Origin: an uncultured Gemmatimonadota bacterium
GTDB lineage: Bacteria; GCA-2686955
Direction: 5' to 3'
Length of the DNA: 32,296 bases
Assembly: GCA_964490075.1 (NCBI GenBank)
Contig: CAZBBK010000067.1
Coordinates: 1 to 32,296, forward strand
The notes below the pieces were generated by a model. That model was given only the letters and a program-made list of their open reading frames with translations, ran no database searches and was not told the DNA's origin. Of this stretch, positions 4,575 to 25,421 are shown piece after piece (the first letter of the stretch is position 1; each line of letters begins with the position of its first letter). A program made the position numbers and the translations under genes.

Positions 4575-7021
4575 TGCTTGTACTTTCTACCGCTGCCACA
4601 GGGACAGGGATCGTTCCGTTTTGGGGCCCGGACGCCGGGTGCGGCGAGCGGCACGGCCTGCGCCTGCGCGATCTCGCGGCTGCGCTTGTCGCGCATGCGA
4701 ATCTCGAGCATGGCGTTCGCCGCTTCCTCTAGCTGCTGCGCTTCGCTCTCCAGAGCCGGGTTCGCTTCGATCTCGAGCTTCATGCGCGCTCGGGCGCTGG
4801 TCACGGCGTCGAGGGCCCGCTGGCAGTCGCGGTCTTCGAGGTGGGCCAGGGCGCGGATCAGGTCGGATTCCGCGGCGCGCAGCCCCTCGAGCTCGCTCCA
4901 GGCGTCGCCGATGCGGCCCAGGGCCAGCAGCCGCCGCGCCTTCAGCATCCGCGCCGCGGGAAGATCGGCATCGTAGCCCTCGGCCAGGAACGCGCGCACG
5001 CTGGTGAACGCGCTGCCGTCGGCGGCACGCAGCTGCGCCGGGCGCAGCCCCGGACGGTCCCTTTCGGCCACCAGTGCCATCGCCGAGCTGACCAGGGGCG
5101 CCAGCTCGTCCACCGCATCGCAGCAGGGGCAGCGGATGGAGCTGCCCGGCAGCACTCCGGCGCTGCCGTTGGTGCTCTGCACCAGCTCCGGATCGACCGC
5201 GACCCGATCGACCGGCGCGGCGGAGATGCGGCCGCAGGCGCTGCAGCGCAGCTCCAGCCAGCCATCCGGAAGTTCGCCCTGCTCGCCGCTCTTGGTCCCC
5301 GTGCGCACCACTTTTCGGAGCCGCTCCATGACCTCGGCGTCGGCGCCGACCAGCGCCGCCAGGGCCAGGGCGTTGGCCGCCGTACGCGGCGTGCGCGGCA
5401 CGCATTCGGCGATCATCCGTTCGCAGATCCCGGCGTGAGGCAGGCGCTGGACCAGCGCCACCAGCGACTCCATGTCGGCGGCCGCGCAGCGCTCCCAGTC
5501 GCCGGCCAGGCGTTCGGCCCAGGCGTCGCGGGTGGGGCTGGCGGCCAGCACGCGCAGCGCCCGCGCCCGGCGCCATTCCTGGTCCCCGGTCAGGAGCTCC
5601 TCGATCTGTTGCGCGAACTCCTCGAAGCGGAAACCGACCGCGCGGCAGGCGCGCACCAGGCGCGGTGCGTCCACCTCCTCCGCGTCCAGCGTCGACCGCA
5701 CGAAGCCGATCCCGCGCTCGTCGCCGCAGGCCACCAGCAGCAGCAGTCCGGCGTGGGCCTTGCTCAGGTCGCCGTCGGTCCAGAGCTTCCCGGCCGCTTC
5801 GCGGATCGCCGCCTCGGCGTCTTCCGCGGGCCGGGCGCTCCCCGCCTCGGAGAGATGCCCGGCCAGACGCAGGGCGCGCAGCGCGAGCTCTTCGCGGTCG
5901 CCCGGCGAGAGGTGATCGCTGCCCAGGGCCACCAGCACCGTGTCGAGCGACGCGTCCCAGCGCGGCAGCGGATCGGGGCGCGGCGCGCGCGCCCGGCGGC
6001 GCCGCTCGGGCGACAGACGCAGCCTCGATCCGGCCGCCACCAGCGCCGCCCAGGGCATCATGATCGGCGGCACGCTGCCGGATCGCTGCAGGGCGGCCAG
6101 TGCCCGCAGCAGCGCGGCCGGCAGCTCGGCGCGCGGCGGCGGATCCTCGATCACGTCGTCGAGATCCTCCAGCAGCGCCCGCAGCACCGGCACCCACTGC
6201 CCGGCGGCGGCCCGCTCCTGCAACCCCTCGACCTCGACACCCGCCGCGCCCAGATGCCGCAGGGCCGGCGTCAACCAGTTCGTCGCCGTGGCGGGCCGCG
6301 GCTGGCCGAGCTCTCGAAGGTCGGGCGCCTCGATCTCGCGGTCCTCCGCCAGTCCCAGGAAACCGGCGATCAGGACCAGGGCGAACCAGTGGGTCACCGG
6401 CGGCTCGGCGTCGCCGAAACGCTGGTGGCCGACGCTCACCAGGATCGCCGCGGCGGGGGCGAAGTCGAGCTCGACCACCGCGTTCATCAGCGAAGGGATC
6501 ACGTCGACCGCCTCGGGCGCGCCCCGCCCCCCCTCTCCGAGCAGCCGCTCACACGCCGGCCCGAGGATCGACGCGTCGCCCGATTCGAGCGCCCAGAGCA
6601 AAGCCTCCGCCAGCGCCTCGGAGAGGCCGCCGGCGCCGGCCTGGTCGCTACGCCGCAGGTGCTCACTCAGGGCATCGTTGACCCGCTCCGGCGCCAGCCA
6701 GCGCAGCGTGGTCAGGGCGCCTTCGTGACCCACCCTCGCGCGTCGCGCCACGTGGTCCGCCAGGCGCCCGATCAGGGCGTCGTCGAGAGGGGCGGTCAGC
6801 CGCGGCGCCAGTTCGGAGAGCGAGCGCAGTGCCGCCCGCTGCACTCTCTGATCGTCATCCTCCAAGAGCTCGATCGCGAGCTCGGCGGCCGCTTCGCAGC
6901 GCGTGCGCTCCCACATCAGCAGGGACGCCGCCCAGAGACGCGCTTCGGCGACCTCGTCGGCAGCACGTGCTCGGAGCACGGACAGATCGTGGGGGCAGGA
7001 ACCATCGAGGAGCGTAGACAT
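4556..7021 (-). CDS. Large helical-repeat protein with a Zn ribbon and C-terminal SEC-C motif
   Basis: C-terminal RNDPCPCGSGRKYKHCC; CSAC...CPCC pair; HEAT/TPR-like helices. ATG 7021 has a GGAG upstream and is preferred over the track start at 7057. Confidence 0.8.
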   Translation of the reverse strand: MSTLLDGSCPHDLSVLRARAADEVAEARLWAASLLMWERTRCEAAAELAIELLEDDDQRVQRAALRSLSELAPRLTAPLDDALIGRLADHVARRARVGHEGALTTLRWLAPERVNDALSEHLRRSDQAGAGGLSEALAEALLWALESGDASILGPACERLLGEGGRGAPEAVDVIPSLMNAVVELDFAPAAAILVSVGHQRFGDAEPPVTHWFALVLIAGFLGLAEDREIEAPDLRELGQPRPATATNWLTPALRHLGAAGVEVEGLQERAAAGQWVPVLRALLEDLDDVIEDPPPRAELPAALLRALAALQRSGSVPPIMMPWAALVAAGSRLRLSPERRRRARAPRPDPLPRWDASLDTVLVALGSDHLSPGDREELALRALRLAGHLSEAGSARPAEDAEAAIREAAGKLWTDGDLSKAHAGLLLLVACGDERGIGFVRSTLDAEEVDAPRLVRACRAVGFRFEEFAQQIEELLTGDQEWRRARALRVLAASPTRDAWAERLAGDWERCAAADMESLVALVQRLPHAGICERMIAECVPRTPRTAANALALAALVGADAEVMERLRKVVRTGTKSGEQGELPDGWLELRCSACGRISAAPVDRVAVDPELVQSTNGSAGVLPGSSIRCPCCDAVDELAPLVSSAMALVAERDRPGLRPAQLRAADGSAFTSVRAFLAEGYDADLPAARMLKARRLLALGRIGDAWSELEGLRAAESDLIRALAHLEDRDCQRALDAVTSARARMKLEIEANPALESEAQQLEEAANAMLEIRMRDKRSREIAQAQAVPLAAPGVRAPKRNDPCPCGSGRKYKHCCLTR

Positions 7022-7041
7022 CGAAGGGCTCCGGAAGAGCT

Positions 7042-7088
7042 GCGCAATCAGATGCACAAGTTCAGGGCACCCGTGCAGTCGATTGCAC
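7042..7088. promoter_or_regulatory. Two related 16-bp dyad boxes, candidate regulator binding sites
   Basis: GCGCAATCAGATGCAC (7042-7057) and near-palindromic GTGCAGTCGATTGCAC (7073-7088), 31 bp apart, in a divergent intergenic region. Confidence 0.35.
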
Positions 7089-7188
7089 GTCGCCCAATCC
7101 AGCAGAAAGGCTCAGAATGGAAGAGTAGCGGTTGGTTTCGTTCCGATCGACGCGCGCCTCTCGGACCCACGCTCTCTGGGGCAAGACG

Positions 7189-7472
7189 ATGAAACATCTG
7201 CGCAGTCCCTTGCAAGTCCCGCTTCTCCTGGCGGCCACCATCGCGGCGCTCGGCTGGGCCCCTCGGGTGCGGGCCGACTTCCATTCCAACCTGCCGCTGC
7301 TCGACGAAGATCCCGACCAGAGCATCCGCCTCGATCAGGCCTGCCCTCAGCCCTGCAGCAGCGACGCCGAGCGCGACATCCCACCCTGGTTCTGGGCCTG
7401 GCTGCGCGGCTTCTGGCGCGAGCACGGAGTCCTGGAGCGGGACGCGCAGCGCGCCGACCAGGGGACCGAACG

Positions 7473-7476
<4 letters not shown>
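7189..7476 (+). CDS. Small secreted hypothetical protein (95 aa)
   Basis: MKHLRSPLQVPLLLAATIAALGWAPRVRA looks like a signal peptide; stop overlaps the ATG of the activator gene (ATGA 7473-7476). Confidence 0.65.
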
Positions 7477-10265
<2,789 letters not shown>

Positions 10266-14770: not shown

Positions 14771-15970
14771 CTAGCCCGAATCCCCCCGCTCCGGCGAGTC
14801 CACCAGCCGCGCCGGCAGAATCGCCGCTTCGCCGAAGCGGTCGCGGATCTGGTCGGCGGCGCGATCGAGCTCGGAATCCGCCTCGGCCGGGTCGGCGAAG
14901 AGCTCCCGCTGCGGGTGCTCCCCGAAGCCGGTGAGGGAGACGCCGATCAGGCGCACCGCCCGATTCGGGTGCCGGGCCAGCAAGGGCCGCAGCTTGGCGC
15001 GCGCGCGGTGGAAGATGTCGAGGGTCGACTCGGTGGCGGGATCGTGGGTGTCGGCGCGGGTCAGGGTGCTGAAATCCGACCAGCGCAGCTTGAGCTGCAC
15101 CGTGCGTCCGCGCAGGCCCAGGCGCCGCAGGCGCCGCCCGACGTGGTCGGCCAGCATCAAGAGGGTGCGCTCGATTTCTTCGTGATCGGCGACATCGACG
15201 TCGAAGGTCAGCTCGTGCCCCACCGATTTGGCCTCGATCCCGCCCTCGACGCGGCGCGGATCTTCGCCGCGCCCGAGCGCCAGGAAGTGCTCGGCGTGGG
15301 CGCTGCCCAGGCGGCGCCGGAGCAGCGCCGGATCGACCGCGTAGAGGTCGGCGACCTTGCGGATCCCGAGCTGCTCCAAGAGCTCGGCCGCCTTCGGTCC
15401 CACCCCCCACAGGCGACGGATCGGCAGGGGCGCCAGGAACTCGATCTCGGCACCGCGAGGAACGATCACCAGTCCGGCCGGCTTCTCGAGATCGGAGGCG
15501 ATCTTGGCCACCGACTTGCAGGCCGCCACGCCGATCGACACCACCAGGCGCTCGCGGCGCCAGATCTCGCGCCGCAGGGCGCGGGCGATGGTGGGCGGGT
15601 CGCCGAAGAGGCGCCGGCTGCCGGTCACCTCGAGAAAGGCCTCGTCGAGCGAGAGCGGCTCCACCTCGGGCGTGAAGTGGCGGAAGATCTCCATCACGCG
15701 GCGCGAGATCTCGACGTAGCGGCCCATGCGCGGGCGCAGGTAGACGCCCTGGGGGCAGCGCTTGAAAGCCTGGGAGATCGGCAGCGCCGAGTGCACCCCG
15801 AATTCGCGCGCTTCGTAGGAAGCGGTGGAGACCACGCCGCGGCCGCGGCCGCCCTGCGGATCGGAGCCGACGATCACCGGCCGGCCGGCCAGCTCCGGCC
15901 GGTCGAGCACCTCGACCGCGGCGTAGAACTGGTCGAGATCGGCGTGGATGATCGCCCTGGGTCGTTCCAT
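14771..15970 (-). CDS. dinB: DNA polymerase IV (Y family)
   Basis: IIHADLDQFYAAVE, STASYEAREFGVHS, SLDEAFL, AKIASDLEKPAG, LWGVGPK, KSVGHELTF; start at ATG 15970. Confidence 0.95.
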   Translation of the reverse strand: MERPRAIIHADLDQFYAAVEVLDRPELAGRPVIVGSDPQGGRGRGVVSTASYEAREFGVHSALPISQAFKRCPQGVYLRPRMGRYVEISRRVMEIFRHFTPEVEPLSLDEAFLEVTGSRRLFGDPPTIARALRREIWRRERLVVSIGVAACKSVAKIASDLEKPAGLVIVPRGAEIEFLAPLPIRRLWGVGPKAAELLEQLGIRKVADLYAVDPALLRRRLGSAHAEHFLALGRGEDPRRVEGGIEAKSVGHELTFDVDVADHEEIERTLLMLADHVGRRLRRLGLRGRTVQLKLRWSDFSTLTRADTHDPATESTLDIFHRARAKLRPLLARHPNRAVRLIGVSLTGFGEHPQRELFADPAEADSELDRAADQIRDRFGEAAILPARLVDSPERGDSG

Positions 15971-16082
15971 GATCGGGCTCGATGGAGGCTCGCTCGCGCT
16001 GCTCGGATCATACTCCCTGGGAAACCGTCCGGGCGGATCGGTCGAGTCAGGTGCCGCCCCGCGCCAGCAGAACCACCGGGGG

Positions 16083-16116
16083 CGCGACGCTGGAATCCTC
16101 CGCGGCCAGCGTCGCG
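16083..16116. other. Perfect 11-bp stem hairpin in the dinB / kinase divergent region
   Basis: CGCGACGCTGG-N12-CCAGCGTCGCG. Confidence 0.5.
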
Positions 16117-16266
16117 GCCCGATCGGCGTCGCCGAACCAGGAAAGGCCCCGGGGGAACGCGCCCACTCCATCCCATCACCCTTACAAAAGGGCCTCTCCC
16201 GCTGGTGGACTCCCGGGGCTGGGTACTCCATGATCCCGGGTGCCGTCCCTTTCCGTGAAGTGTCCG

Positions 16267-18246
16267 ATGAGCAACTCCTCCCCCCCCACTGTCGCGTCCC
16301 TCGCCGAACGCCCCCTGCCCGACCTGGTGCGGGCGGCGGTCGCCGGGCGTGATCGCTATTTCCTGGACGCCGGCGACCCGATTCTCGCCTGCGATCTCGG
16401 CGGGCGGATCGTCGATCTGAACCCGGCCGCCGAGCGCGCCTACGGCTGGAGCCGGCGAGAGCTGTTGGGACGTTCGGCCAGGACGCTGGTCGCCCCCGGC
16501 GACCGTGCCCGCCACGACCAGCTGATGGAGCGGGCGCGGCGCGGCGAGACTCTCGGCTGCATCGCGCTGCGGCAGCGCAGCCGCGACGGCCGTTCGTGGC
16601 CTGGGCTGCTCACCCTGGCGCCGACCATGGACGCGCTGGGCGAGCCGCTCGGCATCACCACCAGCGTCAAGGAGACCAGCGCCCTGGAGCGCGCCCACGG
16701 CGGGCCCTGCGCGGCGGAAGAGCGGCTGCGCGCGCTGATCGACCGCATGATGGAGGGCTTCGCGCTCTCGGAGATCATCGCCGACGCGAAGGGACGCCCG
16801 GTCGACTTCCGCTATCTCGACATCAACCCGGCCTTCGAGCGGCTCACCGGACGCAGCCGCGACCAGGTGGTGGGGAAGCGGGCATCCGAGGTCTTCCCCA
16901 AGCTCGACCCCTTCTGGGTGGAGACCATGGGTCAGGTCGCCACCAGCGGCCGCTCGCTGCGCTTCGAGCGTCACGGCACGCGCACCGACCAGTTTCTCGA
17001 GGTGCTCGCCTACTCCCCGGCCCCGGGCCAGTTCGCCTGCCTCTTCATCGATATCACCAAGCGCAAGCGCCTGGAGGAGAAGCGGGTCGACGACGAGCGG
17101 CGGCTCCAGCAGGCGCAGAAGATGGAGAGTCTGGGGGTGCTGGCCGGCGGCATCGCTCACGACTTCAACAATCTGCTGGTGGGGGTGCTGGGCCACGCCG
17201 AGCTGGCGCTCGACAGCATGGCTGAGGTCGATCCGTCGCGCGGCAATGTGCGCGGCATCGTGCGCGCCGCCAAGCGCGCTTCCGACCTGACGCGGCAGAT
17301 GCTGGCCTACTCGGGCCGCGGCAAGTTCGAGGTCGAGATTCTCGACCTGAACGCGCTGCTGCGCGGCATGAACGAGCTGCTGCGGGTGTCGATCGCCAAG
17401 ACCGCGGTCCTCAAGCAGGATCTGGCCGACTCGGTCCCGCCGATCGAGGCCGACGCCGCCCAGGTGCGCCAGGTGGTGATGAACCTGCTCACCAACGCCT
17501 CGGAGGCGATCGGCCAGAAGAGCGGGGTGATCTCGATCCGCACCGGGGCGCGCGAGCTGAGCGCGGACGATCTGGCCGACTGCGTCGTGGACGGGGTCGA
17601 GGCGGGCGCGCTCTACTCCTATCTGGCGGTGGCCGACACCGGCTGCGGCATGGACGAGGAGACTCGGGCGCGGATCTTCGAGCCCTTCTTCACCACCAAG
17701 TTCACCGGGCGAGGCCTGGGGCTGGCCGCGGTGCTGGGCATCGCCCGGGGTCATGGCGGCACCATCGAGGTGCGCAGCGAGGTGGGGCGCGGCACCGAGA
17801 TCCGGGTGCTTTTTCCGGCGCGGAGCGAGCCGCTCTCTCCCGAGCGCTCGGCGCAGGGTCGCGAGGCCCAGACCTGGCGCGGCGAGGGGACCGTGCTGCT
17901 GGTCGACGACGAGGAGACGGTGCGCGGTGTGGGCAAGCAGTTCCTGATGCGGGCCGGATTCGAGGTGATCACCGCGGTGGACGGGCGGGAGGCATGCGAG
18001 ATCTACCGCGCCCGAGCCGACGAGATCGTGGCGGTGGTGCTCGATCTGACCATGCCGCGGATGGACGGCGACGCCTGTTTCCGCGAGCTGCGGCGGATGC
18101 GTCCCGAGGTCAAGGTGCTGCTCTCCAGCGGCTACAACGAGCAGGAGCTGAGGACGCGCTTCGACGGCCGCGGCTTCGCGGGCTTTGTGCAGAAGCCCTA
18201 TTCCGGCACCGTGCTCCGCTCCAAGCTGAGGGAGTTGCTGGGGTAG
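16267..18246 (+). CDS. Cytoplasmic PAS-PAS hybrid histidine kinase with receiver (CckA-like architecture)
   Basis: Two PAS repeats (NPAAERAYGW, INPAFERLTG), AGGIAHDFNNLL, MNLLTNA, DTGCGM, IFEPFFTTK, GRGLGL, receiver LVDDE/LDLTMP/KP. Confidence 0.92.
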   Translation: MSNSSPPTVASLAERPLPDLVRAAVAGRDRYFLDAGDPILACDLGGRIVDLNPAAERAYGWSRRELLGRSARTLVAPGDRARHDQLMERARRGETLGCIALRQRSRDGRSWPGLLTLAPTMDALGEPLGITTSVKETSALERAHGGPCAAEERLRALIDRMMEGFALSEIIADAKGRPVDFRYLDINPAFERLTGRSRDQVVGKRASEVFPKLDPFWVETMGQVATSGRSLRFERHGTRTDQFLEVLAYSPAPGQFACLFIDITKRKRLEEKRVDDERRLQQAQKMESLGVLAGGIAHDFNNLLVGVLGHAELALDSMAEVDPSRGNVRGIVRAAKRASDLTRQMLAYSGRGKFEVEILDLNALLRGMNELLRVSIAKTAVLKQDLADSVPPIEADAAQVRQVVMNLLTNASEAIGQKSGVISIRTGARELSADDLADCVVDGVEAGALYSYLAVADTGCGMDEETRARIFEPFFTTKFTGRGLGLAAVLGIARGHGGTIEVRSEVGRGTEIRVLFPARSEPLSPERSAQGREAQTWRGEGTVLLVDDEETVRGVGKQFLMRAGFEVITAVDGREACEIYRARADEIVAVVLDLTMPRMDGDACFRELRRMRPEVKVLLSSGYNEQELRTRFDGRGFAGFVQKPYSGTVLRSKLRELLG

Positions 18247-18247
18247 C

Positions 18248-20275
18248 TCAAGGCACGATCCGGCAGGCATCCGCCGCCACCCGGGTCGAGCCGTAGGCCT
18301 CGCCGGTGACGTCGACCACCGCGACGATGTTGCGGCCGGATTTGAACTCGAAGCGGCCGAGCGAGACCCATTCGTCGAAGTAGCGGCTCTGGTCGACCTG
18401 GTGGGGGCCCTGCCAGCCGCCGGTGGTCCGCAGGTAGTAGTGGGCGCTGCCGGTGGTGGCGTAGTTGGCGGGGATGTGGACCTGGACCTGGTAGCTGCGG
18501 GCGGCGGTGTCGAAGAGCCAGGCGGCGGCGTTCTCGTAGGGCATGGAGGAGATGTTCCAGGTCCAGCGGGTGGAACCACCGTAGCCCCAGCCGGTGGCCA
18601 GCCACCACTGATCGGGCGGGCCGACCATGCGGAAGTTCGGATCGTCGTTGTCGACCACCACCACGCCGCCATCTCCCTCGCATTCGTCGGTCGGCCAGCC
18701 CATGTTCTGGTCGGTCCAGAAGCTCTCGGGACCGGAGCAGGTGCCGGCGAAGGGGTCGTCGAGCGGATAGCCGTAGCGCAGCACCTCGAAATGGAGGTGG
18801 GGACCGCTGGAGTTGCCCGAGTTGCCGCTGCGGCCGACCTCGTCGCCGCAAGCCAGCGCCGAGGCCTGGGTCGGCGTGCCGGCCTGCATGTGGGCGTAGA
18901 TGGTCTGGCCGTCGCCGTGATCGAGCCTGATCATGTTGCCGAAGCCGCCGCAGTCGGTGTTGCCGGGCCAGCCCTCTCCGAAGCCGTCGCAGCGCATGCT
19001 CACAAGGCCGTCGGCGCCGGCGTAGATATGGGTCCAGCGCGGGGCGCCGATGTCGGTGCCGCGGTGGCCGTTGTAGCTGAAGCCGCCGCATTTCCAGTCG
19101 AGCACGCCGGCGCCGGCGTCGTTGTCGTAGTAGGCGGTGTAGCCGGGGTGATAGGAGAGCGGGAAGCGGAAGGTGGTGGAGGGCACGGGATCGGGTCCCC
19201 GCGGGGGATGTGGCGGCGGCGCGGGGAGCTCGCGAGCGGGGCCGGAGCCGGCGCCGGAGCCGGCGGGGATGCGCCGCAACGGGTCGGCGGGCGGCGCCAG
19301 GTCGGCGGCCAGGGGGCGGAAGCGGGTCGGATCGGCGCCGCTCGCGATCACCAGTCGCTCGGCACCGTCGGCGCCGGGGCGGCGCGCGACCAGCTCGCCG
19401 GCGGCGCTGAAACCGGGCTGGCGGCCCGGGCCCAGCTCGCGCAGCTCGCCGGAATCGAGGTCGGCCCACCAGAGCGTGGGGGCGCCGGCGCCGGGCGCGC
19501 ACCAGGCGAGTCGGTCGCGGTGGGGCGAGATCGCCAGAGAGCCGTCGGAGGTCGGTGGATCGAGGCCGTCGGCACGGCCGCGAAAGAGCGCCCGCGGGGT
19601 GCCGCCGGGGCGATCGAGAAGGTAGAAAGAGGCGCGGCCGCTGCGCGCGCCGCTGGTGAAGAGCAGTGCTCCGCCGGGCAGCGGGCGCGGCCGGCTGTCG
19701 TCGACTCCGTCGGTCCAGGGGATCGGCTCGCCGCCGGACAGATCGATCGCCTCGATGCGCAGAGGCCCCGGAAAGGCCGCCGGCGCGCGTGCGCAGCGCG
19801 CCACGAAGAGCCAGCGACCGCAGGGCGAGAAGCACGGATCGACGGCACCCTCGAGGGTCATCCGAGGCTCACCGCTGGCCGCTTCGCGCAGCTCGACCGC
19901 GAGCTCGCGGGTCCAGATCGCCACCAGCTCGCCATCGGGCGAGAGGCGGGCATCGACCACCCGCGGCCGCCCCTCGAGCACACGCGGCTCGCCGGGACTG
20001 CGCGAGGAGAGCAGCACCAGGTCGGTGCCGAGCAGCGCGTCGGAAGCAGCCCGGCGCGCGTCGGCACGGGTGACTCCCAGCACTCTGAGCTCCCCCCGCG
20101 GGCCGCGCGCCGCGGCGCGCAGCGCCACGACACCGGGCGCCGGCAGCCGCCGCAGACCGTCGGCGACCACGATCGCCTCGCCCTTGGCCGTCAGGGTAGC
20201 GGGGACCGGCTCTGCGCCGGCCGGCAGCGCCGGAGCCAAGAGCGCGAGGCGGAGAAGTGCGCGAGAGACACCCAT
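18248..20275 (-). CDS. Secreted M23 metallopeptidase with N-terminal TolB-like propeller and C-terminal golvesin-like domain
   Basis: AAGGAG RBS before ATG 20275; signal peptide; LSPDG/FSPCG repeats; HRGTD, YAH and HLHFE Zn motifs; VVVDNDD...WVSLGRFEF...AADA tail. Confidence 0.85.
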   Translation of the reverse strand: MGVSRALLRLALLAPALPAGAEPVPATLTAKGEAIVVADGLRRLPAPGVVALRAAARGPRGELRVLGVTRADARRAASDALLGTDLVLLSSRSPGEPRVLEGRPRVVDARLSPDGELVAIWTRELAVELREAASGEPRMTLEGAVDPCFSPCGRWLFVARCARAPAAFPGPLRIEAIDLSGGEPIPWTDGVDDSRPRPLPGGALLFTSGARSGRASFYLLDRPGGTPRALFRGRADGLDPPTSDGSLAISPHRDRLAWCAPGAGAPTLWWADLDSGELRELGPGRQPGFSAAGELVARRPGADGAERLVIASGADPTRFRPLAADLAPPADPLRRIPAGSGAGSGPARELPAPPPHPPRGPDPVPSTTFRFPLSYHPGYTAYYDNDAGAGVLDWKCGGFSYNGHRGTDIGAPRWTHIYAGADGLVSMRCDGFGEGWPGNTDCGGFGNMIRLDHGDGQTIYAHMQAGTPTQASALACGDEVGRSGNSGNSSGPHLHFEVLRYGYPLDDPFAGTCSGPESFWTDQNMGWPTDECEGDGGVVVVDNDDPNFRMVGPPDQWWLATGWGYGGSTRWTWNISSMPYENAAAWLFDTAARSYQVQVHIPANYATTGSAHYYLRTTGGWQGPHQVDQSRYFDEWVSLGRFEFKSGRNIVAVVDVTGEAYGSTRVAADACRIVP

Positions 20276-20303
20276 GCGGGGCTCCTTTCGGGATCCCCTC
20301 TCT

Positions 20304-20328
20304 TCAAGAATCACACAACTTTGGGCGA
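20304..20328 (+). repeat. 25-bp direct repeat, left copy
   Basis: TCAAGAATCACACAACTTTGGGCGA, identical to 24035-24059. Confidence 0.95.
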
Positions 20329-20370
20329 ATTGGGCGATTTCGCCGGCGACGGGTCGTCGCAACGCGCCGC

Positions 20371-21099
20371 CTACCGCGCGTACGCGACCCGCTCGCGATC
20401 CAGACGACGCCCCAGAGCGAGCGCGGCCAGCACCAGGAAAGAGAGAATCGCGACATAGGGCCCAAGCGCGGACCACGAGAAACTCTGCTCCCACTGGCGC
20501 AACGACGACACGGCCATATAGGCCATGAGCGTCAGCATGTAGATCACCCGGGCCAGGACCGGGCTGACGCTCAACAGTTGCAGTGCGCCCACGACCAGGC
20601 AGATCGCAAAGGCCGTCGGCGGCATCAAGAGCACGAGGAACACCAGGGCGGGGACACTCGGAAGCTGAAGCGGCGCAGGAGCGACCATCAACAGATGGGT
20701 CTCCACGACCAACAACGCGCTCCCGACGAACGCCGTGCAGCATCCGAAGCAGAGCAGAAGCAGGCTCTTGCCCAACCACAGGGAGCGCACCGGCAGATGG
20801 GTGGAAAGGACGAACTCCAGGGTGCCGGTCAGCCGTTCCTGAACAAATGCGGTATTCAGCGAGCTCAACATCACCAGGAGACACAATGACATCGCGTGGT
20901 GCGTGAGGGCGCCATCGATCAGCGCCTGGGCCATCTGCTCCCGAACCCCGTCGGGAGCATGGTACGCCGCCAAGCCATTGGCGAAGAGTAAGAGCAGCGG
21001 CAAGAGCAGCATCCCGCCGAAAGTCGTCGCTTTGTTCTTGACCTCCCTGAGGTCCTTCCACATGATCGCCCTGATTTGAGAGGTAAAGAGTGTCGTCAC
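20371..21099 (-). CDS. ABC-2 type exporter permease
   Basis: IMWKDLRE, about six TM segments, ERLTGTLEFVLSTHLPVRSLWLGK; GTG start overlaps the ATPase stop. Confidence 0.88.
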   Translation of the reverse strand: MTTLFTSQIRAIMWKDLREVKNKATTFGGMLLLPLLLLFANGLAAYHAPDGVREQMAQALIDGALTHHAMSLCLLVMLSSLNTAFVQERLTGTLEFVLSTHLPVRSLWLGKSLLLLCFGCCTAFVGSALLVVETHLLMVAPAPLQLPSVPALVFLVLLMPPTAFAICLVVGALQLLSVSPVLARVIYMLTLMAYMAVSSLRQWEQSFSWSALGPYVAILSFLVLAALALGRRLDRERVAYAR

Positions 21100-22025
21100 T
21101 AGACCCTGCCCTCCGCCAATTCGAAAACATCGTCCAGGTCAACGTGGAGGGGTTCGACTCTCTGGGCCTCGATCGACGCATCGGCCAGCCGACCGATCAC
21201 CTGAACGATCGACTGAGGGCTGCTCGTAAGCAACACTCCCGGCTCCGAGGCGCGTCCAGGGCGCAGCAATCCCAGACCGGGAATCAGAACACGGCGGCGT
21301 GAGCGGGGAAGCTCGCAGGTGCCATCGAGCCACACTCGGTATTTCCTGCCTTCGAAGCCGCGAGTGATCTCCTCGACCGTGCCGCACATCACTCCGCGCC
21401 CCTCCTGCATGAACGTGAGGCGATCACAGAGCTCCTGCACCTCTCGCAAATTGTGAGAGCTCAAGAACACGGTCCGGCCTTCTTCAGCCGACTCGGAAAC
21501 CAGCTCCTGGAAATCCTGTTGGAAATGGGGATCGATGCCGGAGGTCGGCTCATCGAACACCAGCACGGGCGGATCGGGCATCAGAGCCCGCGCCATTGCC
21601 AGCTTTCGTCGCATCCCCTTGGAGAAGGTCGAAGCTCTCTGGTTGGCGCGATCGTCTAGACCGAATCGCTCGAGAAGGGATCGAGCCCGTGCCGCGGGGT
21701 CTGGCACGAGCTGGAGCTTGCCAAAGTAGACCAGGTTGTCCAGCGCCGTGAGGCCCGCGTAGACCGTCGAGTCTTCGAGCATGGCACCGGTCGTCGTTCT
21801 CACGTTTCGGTCCCGATAGGGATCGGTTCCCGAGACCAGGACCCGGCCGCTGGTCGGCCGGATCAAGCCGAGAATCGAGCGAATCGTGGTGGTCTTGCCC
21901 GCCCCATTCGGACCCACCAGACCATAGATCTCTCCCGCCATGGCACGAACGTCGAGATCAACGACCGCATCCTTCGCGCCGTAGCGTTTGCAGAAACCGC
22001 TGACTTCAATTTGCGGATCGCTCAT
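21099..22025 (-). CDS. ABC exporter ATP-binding subunit
   Basis: GPNGAGKTT, FSKGM, VFDEPTSGID, SSH; ATG 22025 overlaps the radical SAM stop (ATGA). Confidence 0.95.
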   Translation of the reverse strand: MSDPQIEVSGFCKRYGAKDAVVDLDVRAMAGEIYGLVGPNGAGKTTTIRSILGLIRPTSGRVLVSGTDPYRDRNVRTTTGAMLEDSTVYAGLTALDNLVYFGKLQLVPDPAARARSLLERFGLDDRANQRASTFSKGMRRKLAMARALMPDPPVLVFDEPTSGIDPHFQQDFQELVSESAEEGRTVFLSSHNLREVQELCDRLTFMQEGRGVMCGTVEEITRGFEGRKYRVWLDGTCELPRSRRRVLIPGLGLLRPGRASEPGVLLTSSPQSIVQVIGRLADASIEAQRVEPLHVDLDDVFELAEGRV

Positions 22026-23425
22026 TGGAATCGAGGTTCGCCGGCGTCGAATTCCAGGCTCTTGCAAGCTCCGAGAAGCTCCTGGGCGCCATGGGCATGG
22101 GCCCATTGGCACAGGCGCCCTTCACGCTCCAATGCCGCGATGGGGCGGACCACGCAACCGGCGCAGTAGCCCGCATAGCGACAGCCTTCGCAGTCCTCCG
22201 GTCCCGGCGTCTTGAGGTTCCGCATTCTGTCCAAGATCGGCTTGCGCAGAGCTTCTTCGAGGGTCTCTCGTCGCAGATCCGCGAAGCTATCGCTTTCCGG
22301 GAGCACGATGCAAGTACGAAGCTTGGCGTGCGGAGAGAGAATGAGGTTCTTATGGCCGGCGCCGCAGTTCTCGGACCCGGATGCCCTCTGCTCCTCGTCC
22401 AGCACGGTCAGGAATCCCGCGTACTTTCTCGCCAACTCAGTTTCCATCTCGGCAACTGCCTCGACGTCGAGGCCCTGCCACCTCCAGGCCAGCTCGGTTC
22501 CGTGACCAAAGGGAGTGACAGGGCTGTAGGAAAAGAGGCGAGCGCCCAATGCCTTCGCCAGCAGCAGCGTTTCCTCGATCTTGAATGCGGACTCGGGAAG
22601 AGCGGTCATCGCCGCTCGTACGAAGATCCCTCGCTCCGCGAGCAGGCCGATCGCGCGCGTTGCCGTGGCGAAGGCCCCAGGGGCGCTGGTTCGGTCGTGC
22701 GTTTCTGCATCCGGACCGTCCAGACTGATGCCAACGAGCAGCCGATCGTACCATTGCAGCAGTTCGTCGGCGACAACGCGGTCGATCAATGTGCCGTTGG
22801 TCAGCAAGGCAACACTTCGGAACTTCCGGAAGCAGTACTCGAGGATCTCTCCGATCTGGGGATGCAGGAAGGGCTCGCCGCCCGATATTTCGATGCTCCC
22901 CAGGCCCAGGTCGGCCCACTCGTCGAGAATCGATCGCAGCTCTTCCACGTCCATGTCCCCGCAGCGGCTCTTCTCGAAGTCGTTGTAACAGTAGGAGCAG
23001 GCGAGATTGCACCGGCTCGAAACCTCGATCGTAATGTGGATCGGAACGTAGAACTCGTGGCTACCGGAAACCGGCGGCGTGCGCGCGGGAGTTTCGTGGT
23101 CGTTCAACACGATCTCTCCGCGCTGCCGCGCTTCGCCGAGGAAATCACACAGCTTCGCTGTGACCTCCGGGTGGTCGGGGATGCCCAACGCCTTCGGTAA
23201 GTCAGCGATGCGTTGCGACCCGTCGCAGAGCGACAACACCCGCGCCGCGTCATGGTTCACGCGCCAAAGCTTGTCACGAAAGGGGAAACCGGGACGCTTC
23301 GCGCCGGCGCCGGAGAACTGACGTACATAGCAGTCACCCGGTGTGAGGTGAATAGACGTCAGTTCCTCCACGCAGGGGAAGAGCGATTCGGCATTGCCGA
23401 TGAGGGCCGCGGTATCGGTACGCAT
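22022..23425 (-). CDS. RRE(PqqD)-radical SAM-SPASM peptide maturase, AlbA-like sactisynthase (467 aa)
   Basis: PqqD-like VNHDAARVLSLCDGSQRIADL; CNLACSYC; SGGEP; TNGT; ISLDG; seven SPASM Cys (CGAG, RTC, CEGCRYAGYCAGC, LCQW). Several blocks match Bacillus AlbA as recalled from memory. Confidence 0.9.
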   Translation of the reverse strand: MRTDTAALIGNAESLFPCVEELTSIHLTPGDCYVRQFSGAGAKRPGFPFRDKLWRVNHDAARVLSLCDGSQRIADLPKALGIPDHPEVTAKLCDFLGEARQRGEIVLNDHETPARTPPVSGSHEFYVPIHITIEVSSRCNLACSYCYNDFEKSRCGDMDVEELRSILDEWADLGLGSIEISGGEPFLHPQIGEILEYCFRKFRSVALLTNGTLIDRVVADELLQWYDRLLVGISLDGPDAETHDRTSAPGAFATATRAIGLLAERGIFVRAAMTALPESAFKIEETLLLAKALGARLFSYSPVTPFGHGTELAWRWQGLDVEAVAEMETELARKYAGFLTVLDEEQRASGSENCGAGHKNLILSPHAKLRTCIVLPESDSFADLRRETLEEALRKPILDRMRNLKTPGPEDCEGCRYAGYCAGCVVRPIAALEREGRLCQWAHAHGAQELLGACKSLEFDAGEPRFQ

Positions 23426-23484
23426 CAGATCCTGACCTGGCGTCGTGGGAGCGAAAGCGCATGGTGCTCCGGAAGACTCGCCTA

Positions 23485-23643
23485 CTAGGGAGAATCCTCG
23501 CAATTGTGCAGATGGACGAGGAAGGCGGAGCCGGTGACGGCCGCGCCGACCATGGGCGAGGTTCCACACGCCGCACAGATCAGGCACGCGCCGCAAGCGT
23601 TGCACTCGGGAATCGAGATCGATGAATGGCCGGGGTTGAACAT
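23485..23643 (-). CDS. Sactipeptide-type RiPP precursor (52 aa)
   Basis: GGAGG RBS 6 nt before ATG; MFNPGHSSISIPECNACGACLICAACGTSPMVGAAVTGSAFLVHLHNCEDSP with Cys at 14, 17, 20, 23, 26 and 48; lies directly upstream of the maturase. Confidence 0.88.
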   Translation of the reverse strand: MFNPGHSSISIPECNACGACLICAACGTSPMVGAAVTGSAFLVHLHNCEDSP

Positions 23644-23785
23644 CGTGACCTCCAGGGGGCCGCGCAAGACCACTGCCGGAAAGGGTGGGAATCCGGGCGC
23701 CGAAGCGCCATCGCAGCGGTCGCGGTGCCTGACGAAGTAGGGAATCGCCGCCACCGGATCTCGGGACGGCTGCTTCGCGAGGCGG

Positions 23786-23802
23786 CGCAGATACGGTGCC
23801 AG
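23786..23802 (-). promoter_or_regulatory. Candidate sigma-54 (-24/-12) promoter for the RiPP operon
   Basis: Minus strand CTGGCACCGTATCTGCG: TGGCAC with GG-N10-GC spacing, CTGC instead of TTGC; ~140 bp upstream of the precursor ATG. Confidence 0.55.
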
Positions 23803-24034
23803 CAAGCCATGAAGGCGCCGCGCCCCTGGCGTCAGACCGGGCTCGGGATGCGGAATCCGGGCGAAGTGGCCCAGCAGAGCCGAATTGCGCGACCAGCGCG
23901 ACGCCGTCCCTGGCACCTGAGTGCGGCCCTCGATCGCCACGCGCCGCTCTGCGGCGGACAGTTCGAGTCGTTCGGCTGCGCGCGGGACTTGCGCGGTGAA
24001 CGCCCGCGCACCGCTCTCTTCGTTCCCCTTCCGA

Positions 24035-24059
24035 TCAAGAATCACACAACTTTGGGCGA
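24035..24059 (+). repeat. 25-bp direct repeat, right copy
   Basis: Identical to 20304-20328. Confidence 0.95.
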
Positions 24060-24110
24060 TTCGGGCCGATCCAATGGAAAGCGACCCCTTGGCGTTTCAG
24101 AGGAGGCAGT

Positions 24111-25421
24111 TTGACCACCGCATCCGGGAACGGCGCGCTCGGCGCCGCGATACTGGACGACCCGGCCGCGTTGCGGGCGCGGCTGGCGGAGCTCGGGCTT
24201 TTTTTCCCGGTCGCCGATCGACCCTTCGTCGGCTCCGGGTCGCCGATCGGCAGTCCCTTGCGGGCCGGCGGTTTCGAGCTGGCGAATCGAGTCTCCTTGC
24301 TGCCGCCGGTGGCCGGCGACGCCGGCGAAGAGGGAGAGCCGAGCCCGGCCACCCTGGAGCGCTGGCGGGGCTACGGTCTGGGCGGCGCGGCGCTGATCTG
24401 GGGCGAGCCGATCGCGGTCTGTGAGAGCGGTCGCTCGCATCCCGCACAGCTCCTTCCGCATCCGGGAGCGCTCGCCGATCTGCGTGCCGCCGTCGCCGGC
24501 GCCCGGGAGGAGCGTTGGGGCGAGCGCGGCTGGTGCCTGGGGCTGGGGCTGGGACACGCCGGTCGCTGGGCGGTCGACGCCGCCGGGACTTCCGCGCCGC
24601 GTCCGGTGCGCCGCCACGACGCTCTCGATGCGCGCGCCGGGGTCGGCGCGGAGCAGGAGCTCTTGAGCGACCTGGAGCTGGAGGGGATCGGCGAGGAGAT
24701 CATCCGCGCCGCGCACCTGGCCTGGAACGCCGGCTTCGACTTCGTCGACCTGGTGCACACCGGCGGCGAGCTGCTGCACGAGCTGCTGGGGGCCGAGAGC
24801 CGCGGCGGTCGCTACGGAGGGTCGCTGGGGGCGCGCACCCGGCTGCTACGGCGCATCATCGCCGGGATCGCGGCGGAGGCACCGGGGCTCAGCATCGCGG
24901 TGCGGCTCTCGCTCTTCGACCGGCTGCCGGGTGCGGCGCCGGTCGCGGCCGACCTGGCCGCCGGCGAGGAGGCCCCGGTCCCGCTCGATCCCGCCGGCGC
25001 GGCGCGGCCCGAGGGCGACGCGGCGCCTGCTGCGAGCAGCCGACCCGGCGATCCGCTGGAGCCCTTCGAGGTGGTTGCGCTGCTGCGCTCGCTGGGAGTT
25101 CGGATCGTCGCCGGCTGCGGCGGCAGCCCCCACTACTCCCCCGACCTCCATCGCCCGGGGAATCGACCCTCCGACACCGACACGGGCGTCGCCGAAGATC
25201 CCCTGGTCGCCGTCGCCCGCCACCTGGCCGCCACCCGGGCGCTCAAGGCCCGCTTTCCCGATCTGCTCTGCGTGGGGGCCGGCTACTCGGCTCTGGGACC
25301 GCTCCTGCCCCACGTCGCCCCGGCCACCATCGAGCGCCAGTGGACCGACATGGTCGGACTCGGCCGTCTGGCCAACGACGACCCCACGGCCGCCTGGAGC
25401 CTGATCGGGGCGCCCGAGTAG
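24111..25421 (+). CDS. NADH:flavin oxidoreductase / Old Yellow Enzyme-fold protein with degenerate active site
   Basis: LANRV, GGAALIWGE, HAGR, AGFDFVD, YGGSLGARTR, IAVRLS, DMVGLGR; the usual HGY segment reads GGE. TTG start uncertain. Confidence 0.75.
   Translation: MTTASGNGALGAAILDDPAALRARLAELGLFFPVADRPFVGSGSPIGSPLRAGGFELANRVSLLPPVAGDAGEEGEPSPATLERWRGYGLGGAALIWGEPIAVCESGRSHPAQLLPHPGALADLRAAVAGAREERWGERGWCLGLGLGHAGRWAVDAAGTSAPRPVRRHDALDARAGVGAEQELLSDLELEGIGEEIIRAAHLAWNAGFDFVDLVHTGGELLHELLGAESRGGRYGGSLGARTRLLRRIIAGIAAEAPGLSIAVRLSLFDRLPGAAPVAADLAAGEEAPVPLDPAGAARPEGDAAPAASSRPGDPLEPFEVVALLRSLGVRIVAGCGGSPHYSPDLHRPGNRPSDTDTGVAEDPLVAVARHLAATRALKARFPDLLCVGAGYSALGPLLPHVAPATIERQWTDMVGLGRLANDDPTAAWSLIGAPE

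What the first reader, a model, noticed from the sequence alone, without database searches (positions are those of the whole stretch)
20304..24059. RiPP cluster bracketed by an exact 25-bp direct repeat with no integrase or tRNA
Seen: TCAAGAATCACACAACTTTGGGCGA at 20304 and 24035 (3731 bp apart), AT-rich for this genome, with weaker similarity on both sides. Spot counts show lower GC in the enclosed genes. Removing the segment would leave the M23 gene (start 20275) and the OYE-like gene (start 24111) as a divergent pair about 100 bp apart. Inference: the cluster was inserted at this site by a recombinase acting in trans or by homologous recombination, and may excise. Alternatively the repeat is a duplicated promoter/operator shared by the RiPP operon and the M23 gene.
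Basis: partly seen in the sequence, partly recalled or inferred. Interest (0 to 1): 0.7.

Follow-up and report, generated by a model that had tools for sequence, protein, structure and literature searches.

The report
Sactipeptide cassette flanked by duplicated promoter sequence
A four-gene cluster for a small modified peptide sits between two older genes and is flanked by two identical 25-base copies of what is probably the neighbouring gene's promoter; this looks like an ordinary past insertion, not a new kind of mobile element.

Summary
TCAAGAATCACACAACTTTGGGCGA occurs exactly at 20304 and 24035 and nowhere else in the 5.7-Mb assembly. It brackets a low-GC four-gene cassette (GC 0.62; flanking genes 0.74-0.75): a 52-aa Cys-rich precursor, an AlbA/SkfB-like radical SAM maturase, and an ABC ATPase and permease.

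Insertion is supported. In a sister genus (G003) the same cassette (79% DNA identity) lies between two other genes, and those two genes are adjacent in this genome. In another genus (G001), M23 has one copy of the repeat's 13-base core upstream. About 94 nt from the M23 start there is an OYE-like start (TTGACCACC), just before the contig ends.

The core reads like an extended -10 promoter (TGnGATTCT) pointing at M23 (copy 1) and at the cassette (copy 2). The similarity may extend about 55 nt into the M23 leader and first codons.

The contig has no integrase, transposase or tRNA, and the segment has no terminal inverted repeats. No empty-site or circle joint was seen, but only assembled contigs could be checked. 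The G003 insertion has no flanking repeat.

Verdict: a real insertion-linked duplication, probably of a promoter. Excision and a trans-acting recombinase are unsupported. Modest interest.

The parts
20304..20328 (.). Repeat copy 1. It lies 29-53 nt upstream of the M23 start. On the - strand it reads TCGCCCAAAGTTGTGTGATTCTTGA.
24035..24059 (.). Repeat copy 2. It lies 52 nt upstream of the OYE-like TTG start (+ strand) and about 390 nt upstream of the precursor ATG (- strand).
20249..20303 (-). M23 5' leader, ATG and first 9 codons. Weakly similar to 23982-24034, so possibly part of the duplication.
   Evidence: 36 of 57 columns identical. The score was reached by 2 of 1000 shuffles and 57 of 3000 random genomic pairs.
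23982..24034 (-). Diverged counterpart of the M23 leader and start. The position matching the M23 ATG reads GCG here.
   Evidence: read against the sequence.
20342..20356 (-). 15-mer CCGGCGACGGGTCGT just past the permease stop, also present after the permease stop in G003. It probably marks the cassette's end (hairpin or terminator-like).
   Evidence: 14 of 15 identical with L056 568-582. The score was reached by 2 of 500 shuffles.
20371..21099 (-). ABC-2 type permease, 242 aa.
   Evidence: Weak Pfam ABC2_membrane hit, E 0.0019. 84% identical to the G003 copy.
21099..22028 (-). ABC transporter ATPase, 309 aa.
   Evidence: PF00005, E 6.8e-29. DrrA-type and lantibiotic-protection ATPase models hit. 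80% identical to G003.
22022..23425 (-). Radical SAM peptide maturase, AlbA/SkfB-like, 467 aa.
   Evidence: PF04055, E 1.7e-23. NCBIfam AlbA scores 196.5 bits, E 5.3e-58, below the 850-bit cut-off. Closest solved structure is SkfB 6efn, E 1.3e-19. 76% identical to G003.
23485..23643 (-). Precursor peptide, 52 aa with 6 Cys (MFNPGHSS...CNACGACLICAACG...).
   Evidence: 85% identical to the G003 ORF. Homology begins about 10 nt before this ATG. No Pfam or NCBIfam hit.
23644..23981 (-). Orphan stretch between the duplicated region and the precursor. Probably a long 5' leader of the cassette transcript.
   Evidence: No homologue in G000-G004 and none among 1.84 billion representative proteins apart from its own ORF. 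No Rfam hit. RNA fold z-score +0.9. GC 0.71.
18248..20275 (-). M23 peptidase with a Golvesin_C domain: the native left neighbour.
   Evidence: Orthologues in G001, G002 and G003 at 55-61% identity.
24111..25421 (+). OYE-like flavin oxidoreductase with a TTG start: the native right neighbour.
   Evidence: PF00724, E 4.5e-7. Orthologue in G003 at 60% identity, with the same TTGACCAC start and GGAGGCAG ribosome-binding site.
24050..24086 (.). Stretch similar to an internal part of a ~185-bp MITE family found in this bacterial family. It starts inside the last 9 nt of copy 2.
   Evidence: 31 of 38 identical to the G000 C3 MITE copy, positions 39-76. The score was reached by 0 of 1000 shuffles.

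Best explanation
A ~3.7-kb segment was placed in the short divergent intergenic region between the M23 peptidase gene and the OYE-like gene. The segment carries a four-gene sactipeptide-type cassette (precursor, AlbA/SkfB-like radical SAM maturase, ABC ATPase, permease) and a ~340-nt orphan leader. The event left two copies of the sequence just upstream of M23: certainly 25 bp, possibly ~90 bp reaching into the M23 leader and first codons.

The exact 25-bp core probably contains the M23 promoter. On the - strand it reads GTTGTGTGATTCT, that is TGn plus a -10-like GATTCT. Copy 1 would then still drive M23 from about 25 nt upstream of its ribosome-binding site. Copy 2 would drive the cassette through the long leader.

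Shown: the repeat, the cassette's identity, its different location in a sister genus, the unoccupied site here for that other location, and conservation of the core upstream of M23 in a third genus. Inferred: that the core is a promoter, how far the duplication extends, and how the event happened. The most likely route is a single crossover or homology-facilitated illegitimate recombination by host functions, not a dedicated recombinase. Nothing shows that the segment moves today.
For: Repeat: exact, and only two copies in the genome.

Cassette: family hits. The same four genes, in the same order, lie on a G003 contig at 76-85% aa and 79% DNA identity. There they sit between a ferredoxin-like gene and an aldehyde dehydrogenase gene. 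Those two genes are adjacent and divergent in this genome, about 300 nt apart on C31.

Synteny at this locus: in G003 the OYE gene is divergent with dinB. In G001, dinB and M23 are adjacent, and 94 nt beyond the M23 start comes TTGACCACC, which is how OYE starts in G000 (TTGACCACC) and G003 (TTGACCACG). The G001 contig ends 44 nt later. No cassette gene was found in the five relatives' contigs that hold M23 or OYE.

Core motif: the 13-mer AGAATCRCACAAC occurs twice in G000 (the two copies) and twice in G001, once at the matching place upstream of M23. It does not occur in G002, G003 or G004, and controls gave 0. The single G000/G001 difference inside the 13-mer falls on the n of TGn (by sight). 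In G003, where OYE faces dinB instead of M23, the motif is missing, which ties it to M23 rather than OYE.

Left-flank similarity runs through the M23 leader and ATG. A conserved 15-mer, hairpin-like by sight, follows the permease stop in both genomes, so M23 plausibly needs its own promoter downstream of the cassette.

No integrase or transposase family was found in the 22 ORFs scanned on the contig. There is no tRNA, and none of the 25 longest inverted-repeat pairs has its arms at the two ends of the segment.
Against: Promoter function is read from the sequence only. The sigma-70 scan, which needs both a -35 and a -10 box, found nothing at either copy, and no transcript data were available. 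TGnGATTCT occurs 59 times in the genome, against roughly 45 expected from base composition by my estimate, so the motif is not distinctive by itself.

Only 14 of the 25 positions match G001. Exact identity of all 25 in both copies is therefore more than a 13-nt promoter constraint explains. It needs a young duplication, a lineage-specific operator, or a crossover inside the core.

The extension beyond 25 bp is only nominally significant (57 of 3000 random genomic pairs reach the score). The G001 'empty site' depends on 44 nt at a contig end, and the N-terminal part of OYE is not assembled there. The G003 insertion shows no duplication, so a duplication is not a regular feature of how this cassette lands. 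Cassette divergence (79% DNA) is within the range of core genes (67-82%), so the timing is open.
Confidence: 0.55

Rival explanations
1. The duplication is neutral. A circular or linear DNA carrying the cassette integrated by a single crossover, or by homology-facilitated illegitimate recombination, at a short stretch of identity. Alternatively, a staggered break was filled in. The 25-mer is then simply the crossover or duplicated stretch and does nothing. Its exactness reflects either youth or the crossover having occurred within identical sequence.
For: Identity falls off sharply at both ends of the 25-mer. All 25 positions are identical, although only 14 of 25 match G001. 25 bp is close to the minimal length reported for RecA-dependent recombination (recalled, not checked). 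No recombinase gene is nearby.
Against: The 13-base core is conserved at the same place in another genus, so at least part of the repeat is under constraint. The orientation and spacing fit a promoter for both downstream units.
Confidence: 0.25
2. The repeats are att-like sites of a non-autonomous integrative cassette. A recombinase encoded elsewhere recognises the 25-mer, inserted the cassette, and can excise it as a circle.
For: The cassette sits at different loci in two genera, both times between divergently transcribed genes and in the same orientation relative to the left gene. It has exact direct repeats and lower GC than the host in both genomes.
Against: The genome holds no other copy of the 25-mer. 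There are no flanking repeats and no copy of the 13-mer core at the G003 insertion. Cassette homology between G000 and G003 stops at the gene ends apart from a 15-mer, so the two cassettes share no end sequences. No integrase, transposase or tRNA on the contig. The 25-mer is not a palindrome and does not look like a dif-type site (by sight). No joint was seen in contigs of 4 runs, which is weak evidence because contigs drop rare forms.
Confidence: 0.12
3. The cassette was already between M23 and OYE in the common ancestor. G001 lost it by recombination between the two repeats, and the G003 lineage moved it elsewhere.
For: G001 keeps a single copy of the core. Cassette divergence between G000 and G003 equals that of core genes, consistent with long residence in the family.
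Against: It needs more events. In G003 OYE faces dinB with no M23, and both g3 genomes have M23 at another locus. The two G000 copies are identical to each other but differ from G001 at 11 of 25 positions, which favours a duplication after the split.
Confidence: 0.08

Closest known systems
Subtilosin (sbo-alb) and sporulation killing factor (skf) type sactipeptide clusters
   Same: A radical SAM maturase that matches the AlbA model over profile positions 95-433 of 442, with SkfB as the closest solved structure. It sits next to a short Cys-rich precursor and an ABC-2 transporter pair. The precursor has its cysteines in the N-terminal half and a hydrophobic C-terminal half, as I recall for subtilosin.
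   Different: Only 196 bits against an 850-bit cut-off, so it is not an AlbA equivalog. The precursor matches no family. There is no dedicated protease or further alb-type genes. The host is a high-GC marine lineage; the record title of the G003 contig names an uncultured Gemmatimonadota MAG. The maturase family is very rare: 16 proteins at E<=1e-20, and only 2 above 50% identity, among 5.8 billion.
Genomic islands and islets flanked by att-type direct repeats
   Same: A lower-GC gene block bounded by exact direct repeats, inserted between conserved neighbours.
   Different: No integrase, no tRNA target, no other copy of the site, no evidence of excision, and no repeats at the second insertion in G003.
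Campbell-type (single-crossover) or homology-facilitated illegitimate integration
   Same: It yields a direct duplication of the homologous stretch on both sides of the inserted DNA, needs only host recombination functions, and can leave flanks of different origin around an identical core.
   Different: The presumed circular or linear donor, and its own copy of the M23 upstream sequence, are hypothetical. The mechanism cannot be told from the end product.
Target-site duplications of IS elements, transposons and MITEs
   Same: A direct repeat of target sequence on both sides of inserted DNA.
   Different: As I recall, 25 bp is well beyond the usual 2-15 bp. There are no terminal inverted repeats and no transposase. 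The family's own MITE leaves about 3 bp (TWA-like) and has TIRs that are absent from the window.

Membership tests
Sactipeptide-type RiPP cluster (AlbA/SkfB-like) | Radical SAM core with a CxxxCxxC motif | tested here: met
   PF04055, E 1.7e-23. CNLACSYC at residues 139-146.
Sactipeptide-type RiPP cluster (AlbA/SkfB-like) | C-terminal SPASM/twitch auxiliary Fe-S domain | tested here: inconclusive
   The AlbA model aligns through position 433 of 442, and CEGCRYAGYCAGC is visible by sight. However, Pfam SPASM (PF13186) was not reported for this protein at E<=0.01. It is precomputed for relatives P0002 and P0003.
Sactipeptide-type RiPP cluster (AlbA/SkfB-like) | Short Cys-rich precursor gene next to the maturase | tested here: met
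   52-aa ORF with 6 Cys, 85% conserved in G003.
Sactipeptide-type RiPP cluster (AlbA/SkfB-like) | Cys sulfur to alpha-carbon thioether links in the product | not testable with these tools
   Needs expression and mass spectrometry or NMR.
AlbA equivalog (NF012164) | Score above the curated cut-off | tested here: not met
   196.5 bits against 850.
Integrase-mediated genomic island / integrative element | Integrase or recombinase gene in or beside the segment | tested here: not met
   No such Pfam or NCBIfam family in the 22 ORFs scanned on the contig.
Integrase-mediated genomic island / integrative element | tRNA or tmRNA gene as target | tested here: not met
   ARAGORN found 0 genes in the window.
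Integrase-mediated genomic island / integrative element | Flanking direct repeats | tested here: met
   Exact 25-mer at both ends.
Integrase-mediated genomic island / integrative element | Excised circle or empty site in the population | tested here: inconclusive
   No joints in 4 runs, but only assembled contigs were available.
IS / transposon / MITE | Terminal inverted repeats and a transposase (or a known MITE TIR) | tested here: not met
   None of the 25 longest inverted pairs has arms at both ends of the segment. The MITE TIR has 0 matches in the window. No transposase family found.
Extended -10 sigma-70-type promoter | TGn directly upstream of a -10 hexamer with A at position 2 and T at position 6 | tested here: met
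   TGTGATTCT on the - strand in both copies and TGCGATTCT in G001 (by sight). This is a sequence match only.
Extended -10 sigma-70-type promoter | Transcription start a few nt downstream | not testable with these tools
   No RNA runs could be examined.

The most novel reading that the evidence does not exclude
The cassette is a small, promoter-less, non-autonomous unit that relocates between divergent promoter regions. In both genomes it lies between divergently transcribed genes in the same orientation. Here it would have acquired its promoter by copying the resident one during integration. The 25-mer would then be both the recombination site and the captured promoter, and the segment could still excise through it.
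Probability: 0.1. Interest if true: 0.6.

Novelty: new member of a known kind. Interest (0 to 1): 0.3.

Why it matters
This is a clean, dated-by-comparison example of how a rare peptide-antibiotic-type gene cassette is slotted into a bacterial chromosome without its own mobility genes. It also shows how both the cassette and the gene it displaced may keep being expressed through a duplicated promoter core.

The cassette belongs to a very sparsely sampled maturase family (two relatives above 50% identity among 5.8 billion proteins) in a poorly known marine lineage, so its product is probably a new sactipeptide-like compound.

The repeat itself does not open a new mechanism. Its value is as a marker of the insertion boundaries and as a testable promoter candidate.

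Tried and rejected
- Exact 25-mer in JGI metagenome contigs: 0 hits.
- OYE alignment in metagenome contigs: 80 loci kept of 518 confirmed relatives, all at 37-45% identity. None has M23, dinB or cassette genes beside it and none has the core motif. Uninformative for an empty site.
- Maturase in genome contigs: nothing with the single sequence; only the G003 contig with the alignment. In viral contigs: nothing.
- Reads: only Logan contigs of one study, and no joints. This says nothing about rare excision.
- The 23644-24034 stretch: no DNA or protein homologue in G000-G004. No relative among 1.84 billion representatives. No Pfam or NCBIfam hit for either long ORF. No similarity to M23 N-termini (best E 0.24). 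No Rfam hit. No unusual RNA stability. It does show a 3-base GC periodicity that remains unexplained.
- Idea that the G002 M23-upstream region is orthologous to the flank of copy 2: rejected. The similarity comes from a MITE inserted there.
- Idea that the whole repeat is MITE-derived: only 24050-24086 is significantly MITE-like. The left half of the 25-mer, the G001 and G003 intergenic regions, and the C76 site are not.
- A third genomic site resembling the right half of the repeat (C76:12155-12180) lies at the 3' end of a beta-helix-type ORF. It is not treated as a regulon member.
- The sigma-70 and terminator scans found nothing at the repeats.
- ALDH-site polarity: the G001 contig is too short and G002 has no orthologue.
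- Earlier notes of this scan: none for this place.
- Literature: two full-text searches, seen as listings only, returned nothing bearing on this locus.


Full report
**Observation.** The 25-mer TCAAGAATCACACAACTTTGGGCGA is present exactly at 20304-20328 and 24035-24059, on the same strand and 3731 bp apart. There is no further match in the window at up to three mismatches, and no shuffle gave two matches. The window is the whole contig C67 of a 5.7-Mb, 136-contig assembly. That assembly holds only these two copies at up to three mismatches. GC falls from about 0.74 to about 0.62 between roughly 20400 and 23500. The four enclosed genes are at 0.62-0.63, against 0.736 for M23, 0.754 for OYE and 0.684 for the genome. 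Contigs assembled independently from three further runs of the same study bridge copy 2, and one bridges copy 1, all without differences. The arrangement is therefore not an assembly artefact.

**What is enclosed.** All genes are on the - strand.
- A 52-aa precursor with six Cys (23485-23643).
- A 467-aa radical SAM enzyme (22022-23425). It matches the Radical_SAM family and the subtilosin maturase AlbA model across most of the profile, but scores far below the equivalog cut-off. Its closest solved relative is the sactipeptide maturase SkfB.
- An ABC ATPase (21099-22028).
- An ABC-2 type permease (20371-21099).

This is a sactipeptide-type RiPP cassette with an export or immunity transporter. 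The maturase family is very rare: 16 proteins at E<=1e-20 among 5.8 billion, and only two above 50% identity. The 186-aa ORF that a gene caller made of the precursor is over-extended. Conservation with G003 begins about 10 nt before the internal ATG.

**The cassette sits elsewhere in a sister genus.** Only three genomes of the same family are held, all fragmentary (83-84% complete). G003 carries the same four genes in the same order on a 6.3-kb contig, at 84, 80, 76 and 85% aa identity and 79% DNA identity over window 20367-23389 and 23497-23653. There the cassette lies between a ferredoxin-like gene (-) and an aldehyde dehydrogenase gene (+). In this genome the orthologues of those two genes (81% and 84% aa) are adjacent and divergent on contig C31, about 300 nt apart. 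The G003 site is therefore unoccupied here.

Homology between the two cassettes stops at the permease stop, except for a 15-mer just beyond it, and stops just upstream of the precursor. The upstream leaders (about 390 nt here, about 630 nt in G003) are unrelated. The G003 insertion has no flanking direct repeat. Cassette divergence (79% DNA) lies within the range of core genes between the two genomes (67-82%), so nothing points to a recent transfer between them. In both genomes the cassette is about 5-6 GC points below its surroundings.

**The site in this genome.** In G003 the OYE orthologue is directly divergent with dinB, the orthologue of window 14792-15970. There is no kinase, M23 or cassette between them. 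In G001, dinB and M23 are adjacent. Upstream of M23 lies TTGAGAATCGCACAAC, and 94 nt from the M23 start comes TGTCGATGGATTGACCACC. TTGACCACC is the OYE start in G000, and TGTCGATGGA lies upstream of the OYE start in G003. The G001 contig ends 44 nt later. A separate short G001 contig begins inside the C-terminal part of OYE. The N-terminal part is not assembled, and no overlapping contig exists.

So G001 probably shows the predicted empty site: M23 and OYE divergent, 94 nt apart (104 nt predicted here), with one copy of the core. The 13-mer AGAATCRCACAAC is rare. It occurs twice in G000 (the two copies), twice in G001 (one at this place, one in another intergenic region) and not at all in G002, G003 or G004; controls gave none. 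Its presence at the matching place is therefore very unlikely to be chance. No closer relatives could be found.

**What the repeat is.** Read on the - strand, the strand of both M23 and the cassette, the core is TCGCCCAAAGTTGTGTGATTCTTGA. It contains TGT-GATTCT, an extended -10-like element with A at position 2 and T at position 6 of the hexamer. G001 has TGC-GATTCT, so the only difference within the 13-mer falls on the free position of TGn.
- Copy 1 ends 29 nt before the M23 ATG, and an AAAGGAG ribosome-binding site lies between them.
- Copy 2 is about 390 nt upstream of the precursor.
- The motif is absent where OYE faces dinB (G003), and absent where M23 sits behind another gene (G002, G003).

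This ties the motif to M23 at this locus. A 15-mer conserved in both genomes, hairpin-like by sight, follows the permease stop. M23 would then need a promoter of its own downstream of the cassette.

Beyond the 25-mer, the copies match over 41 nt at 85% without gaps. With gaps they give 36 of 57 identities on the M23 side, running through the M23 leader, ATG and first nine codons. In copy 2 the ATG position reads GCG. This extension is nominally significant (reached by 2 of 1000 shuffles, and 57 of 3000 random genomic pairs). The other side is not significant (55 of 1000 and 531 of 3000). Unanchored flank alignments are not significant.

**Reading.** The most economical account is a past insertion of the cassette plus an orphan leader into the M23|OYE intergenic region. 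The sequence just upstream of M23 was duplicated, so both M23 and the cassette lie behind the same promoter core.

One difficulty remains. Only 14 of 25 positions match G001, yet all 25 are identical between the two copies. A 13-nt promoter constraint alone does not explain that. The duplication may be young, or the whole 25-mer may be a lineage-specific operator, or the crossover may have occurred inside an identical stretch, as in a Campbell-type integration with flanks of different origin.

I could not separate these possibilities, nor show promoter activity. The consensus scan, which needs a -35 box, finds nothing at the repeats. TGnGATTCT is not enriched genome-wide: 59 found, against roughly 45 expected by my estimate.

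**What speaks against an active element.**
- No integrase, transposase or other recombinase family in the 22 ORFs scanned on the contig.
- No tRNA.
- No terminal inverted repeats at the segment ends.
- No other copy of the site in the genome.
- No repeats at the G003 insertion.
- No shared end sequences between the two cassettes apart from the 15-mer.
- No empty-site or circle joint in four runs. Those were contigs only, which cannot show rare forms.

**A side result.** The family carries a ~185-bp MITE with TIRs GGGTCCGGAAAGAAAC... and a TWA-like duplication. The search gave 4 matches in G000, 7 in G002, 61 in G003 (many at contig ends), 6 in G004 and none in G001. One copy sits in the M23 leader of G002. 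This explains a similarity I first took for orthology.

The OYE-side flank of copy 2 (24050-24086, starting inside the last 9 nt of the repeat) is 31 of 38 identical to an internal MITE stretch, a score reached by 0 of 1000 shuffles. The left half of the repeat and the G001 and G003 intergenic regions are not significantly MITE-like, and no MITE end occurs in the window. The intergenic region may therefore hold an old MITE fragment. This does not explain the duplication.

**Comparison and verdict.** The cassette is a new, rare member of the AlbA/SkfB-type sactipeptide clusters. The bracketing repeat resembles the att repeats of islands and the duplications left by single-crossover integration. 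It fails the defining tests for an integrase island, a transposon or a MITE. It is of modest general interest.

Noticed in passing
window 15971-18247: The hybrid histidine kinase gene (16240-18246, +) lies between dinB and M23 here, whereas in G001 dinB and M23 are directly adjacent. It therefore looks like a second, separate insertion in this variable region. No exact repeat of 8 nt or more is shared between its two flanks.
   Followed up: partly
L043 (G002:C14) about 2570-2770; G000 C3:162427-162609, C32:3097-3248, C44:23205-23324, C43:8361-8514: A ~185-bp MITE family with ~25-nt TIRs (GGGTCCGGAAAGAAAC...) and a TWA-like target duplication. Each half is roughly the inverted copy of the other. 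The search gave 61 matches in G003 (many at contig ends), 7 in G002, 6 in G004, 4 in G000 and none in G001. One copy is inserted in the M23 leader of G002.
   Followed up: partly
window 24050-24086: The OYE-upstream sequence just after and overlapping the end of repeat copy 2 is 31 of 38 identical to positions 39-76 of that MITE. It may be an old MITE fragment in the intergenic region.
   Followed up: partly
G000 C76:12155-12180 (L153 2656-2681): ACTTTGGGCGAATCGGGCGGATC resembles the right half of the repeat plus its flank. It is the only other genomic match to TTTGGGCGA[AT]T[TC]GGGC. It lies at the 3' end of a beta-helix-type ORF that looks frameshifted.
   Followed up: partly
G000 C31:61780-61812 and L056 356-395: A noncoding motif, CTTCTTGGACAGTAACTCTTTACG (with CTTCTTGGACAA repeated just before it in G000), is conserved between G000 and G003 in the ferredoxin|ALDH intergenic region. 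The G003 cassette begins shortly after it.
   Followed up: no
L148 (G001:C135) 3150-3260: The second G001 occurrence of the 13-mer core lies in an intergenic region next to a (GACCCGT)n tandem array.
   Followed up: no
window 23644-24034: This stretch has no homologue anywhere searched, yet shows a three-base GC periodicity (0.76-0.78, 0.60, 0.76-0.78). The periodicity fits the frame that runs into the precursor, or its antisense. A + strand ORF (23626-24114) ends in TTGA, overlapping the OYE start.
   Followed up: partly
window 24111-25421: The OYE-like protein is a weak Pfam match, but it has more than 500 relatives at 37-45% identity in metagenome contigs. This looks like a distinct, widespread subfamily.
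   Followed up: no
window 6852-10262: A large sigma-54 activator (AAA+ domain and HTH_8) with an N-terminal TPR region lies upstream in the window. No sigma-54-type -24/-12 element was seen in the repeat by sight.
   Followed up: no
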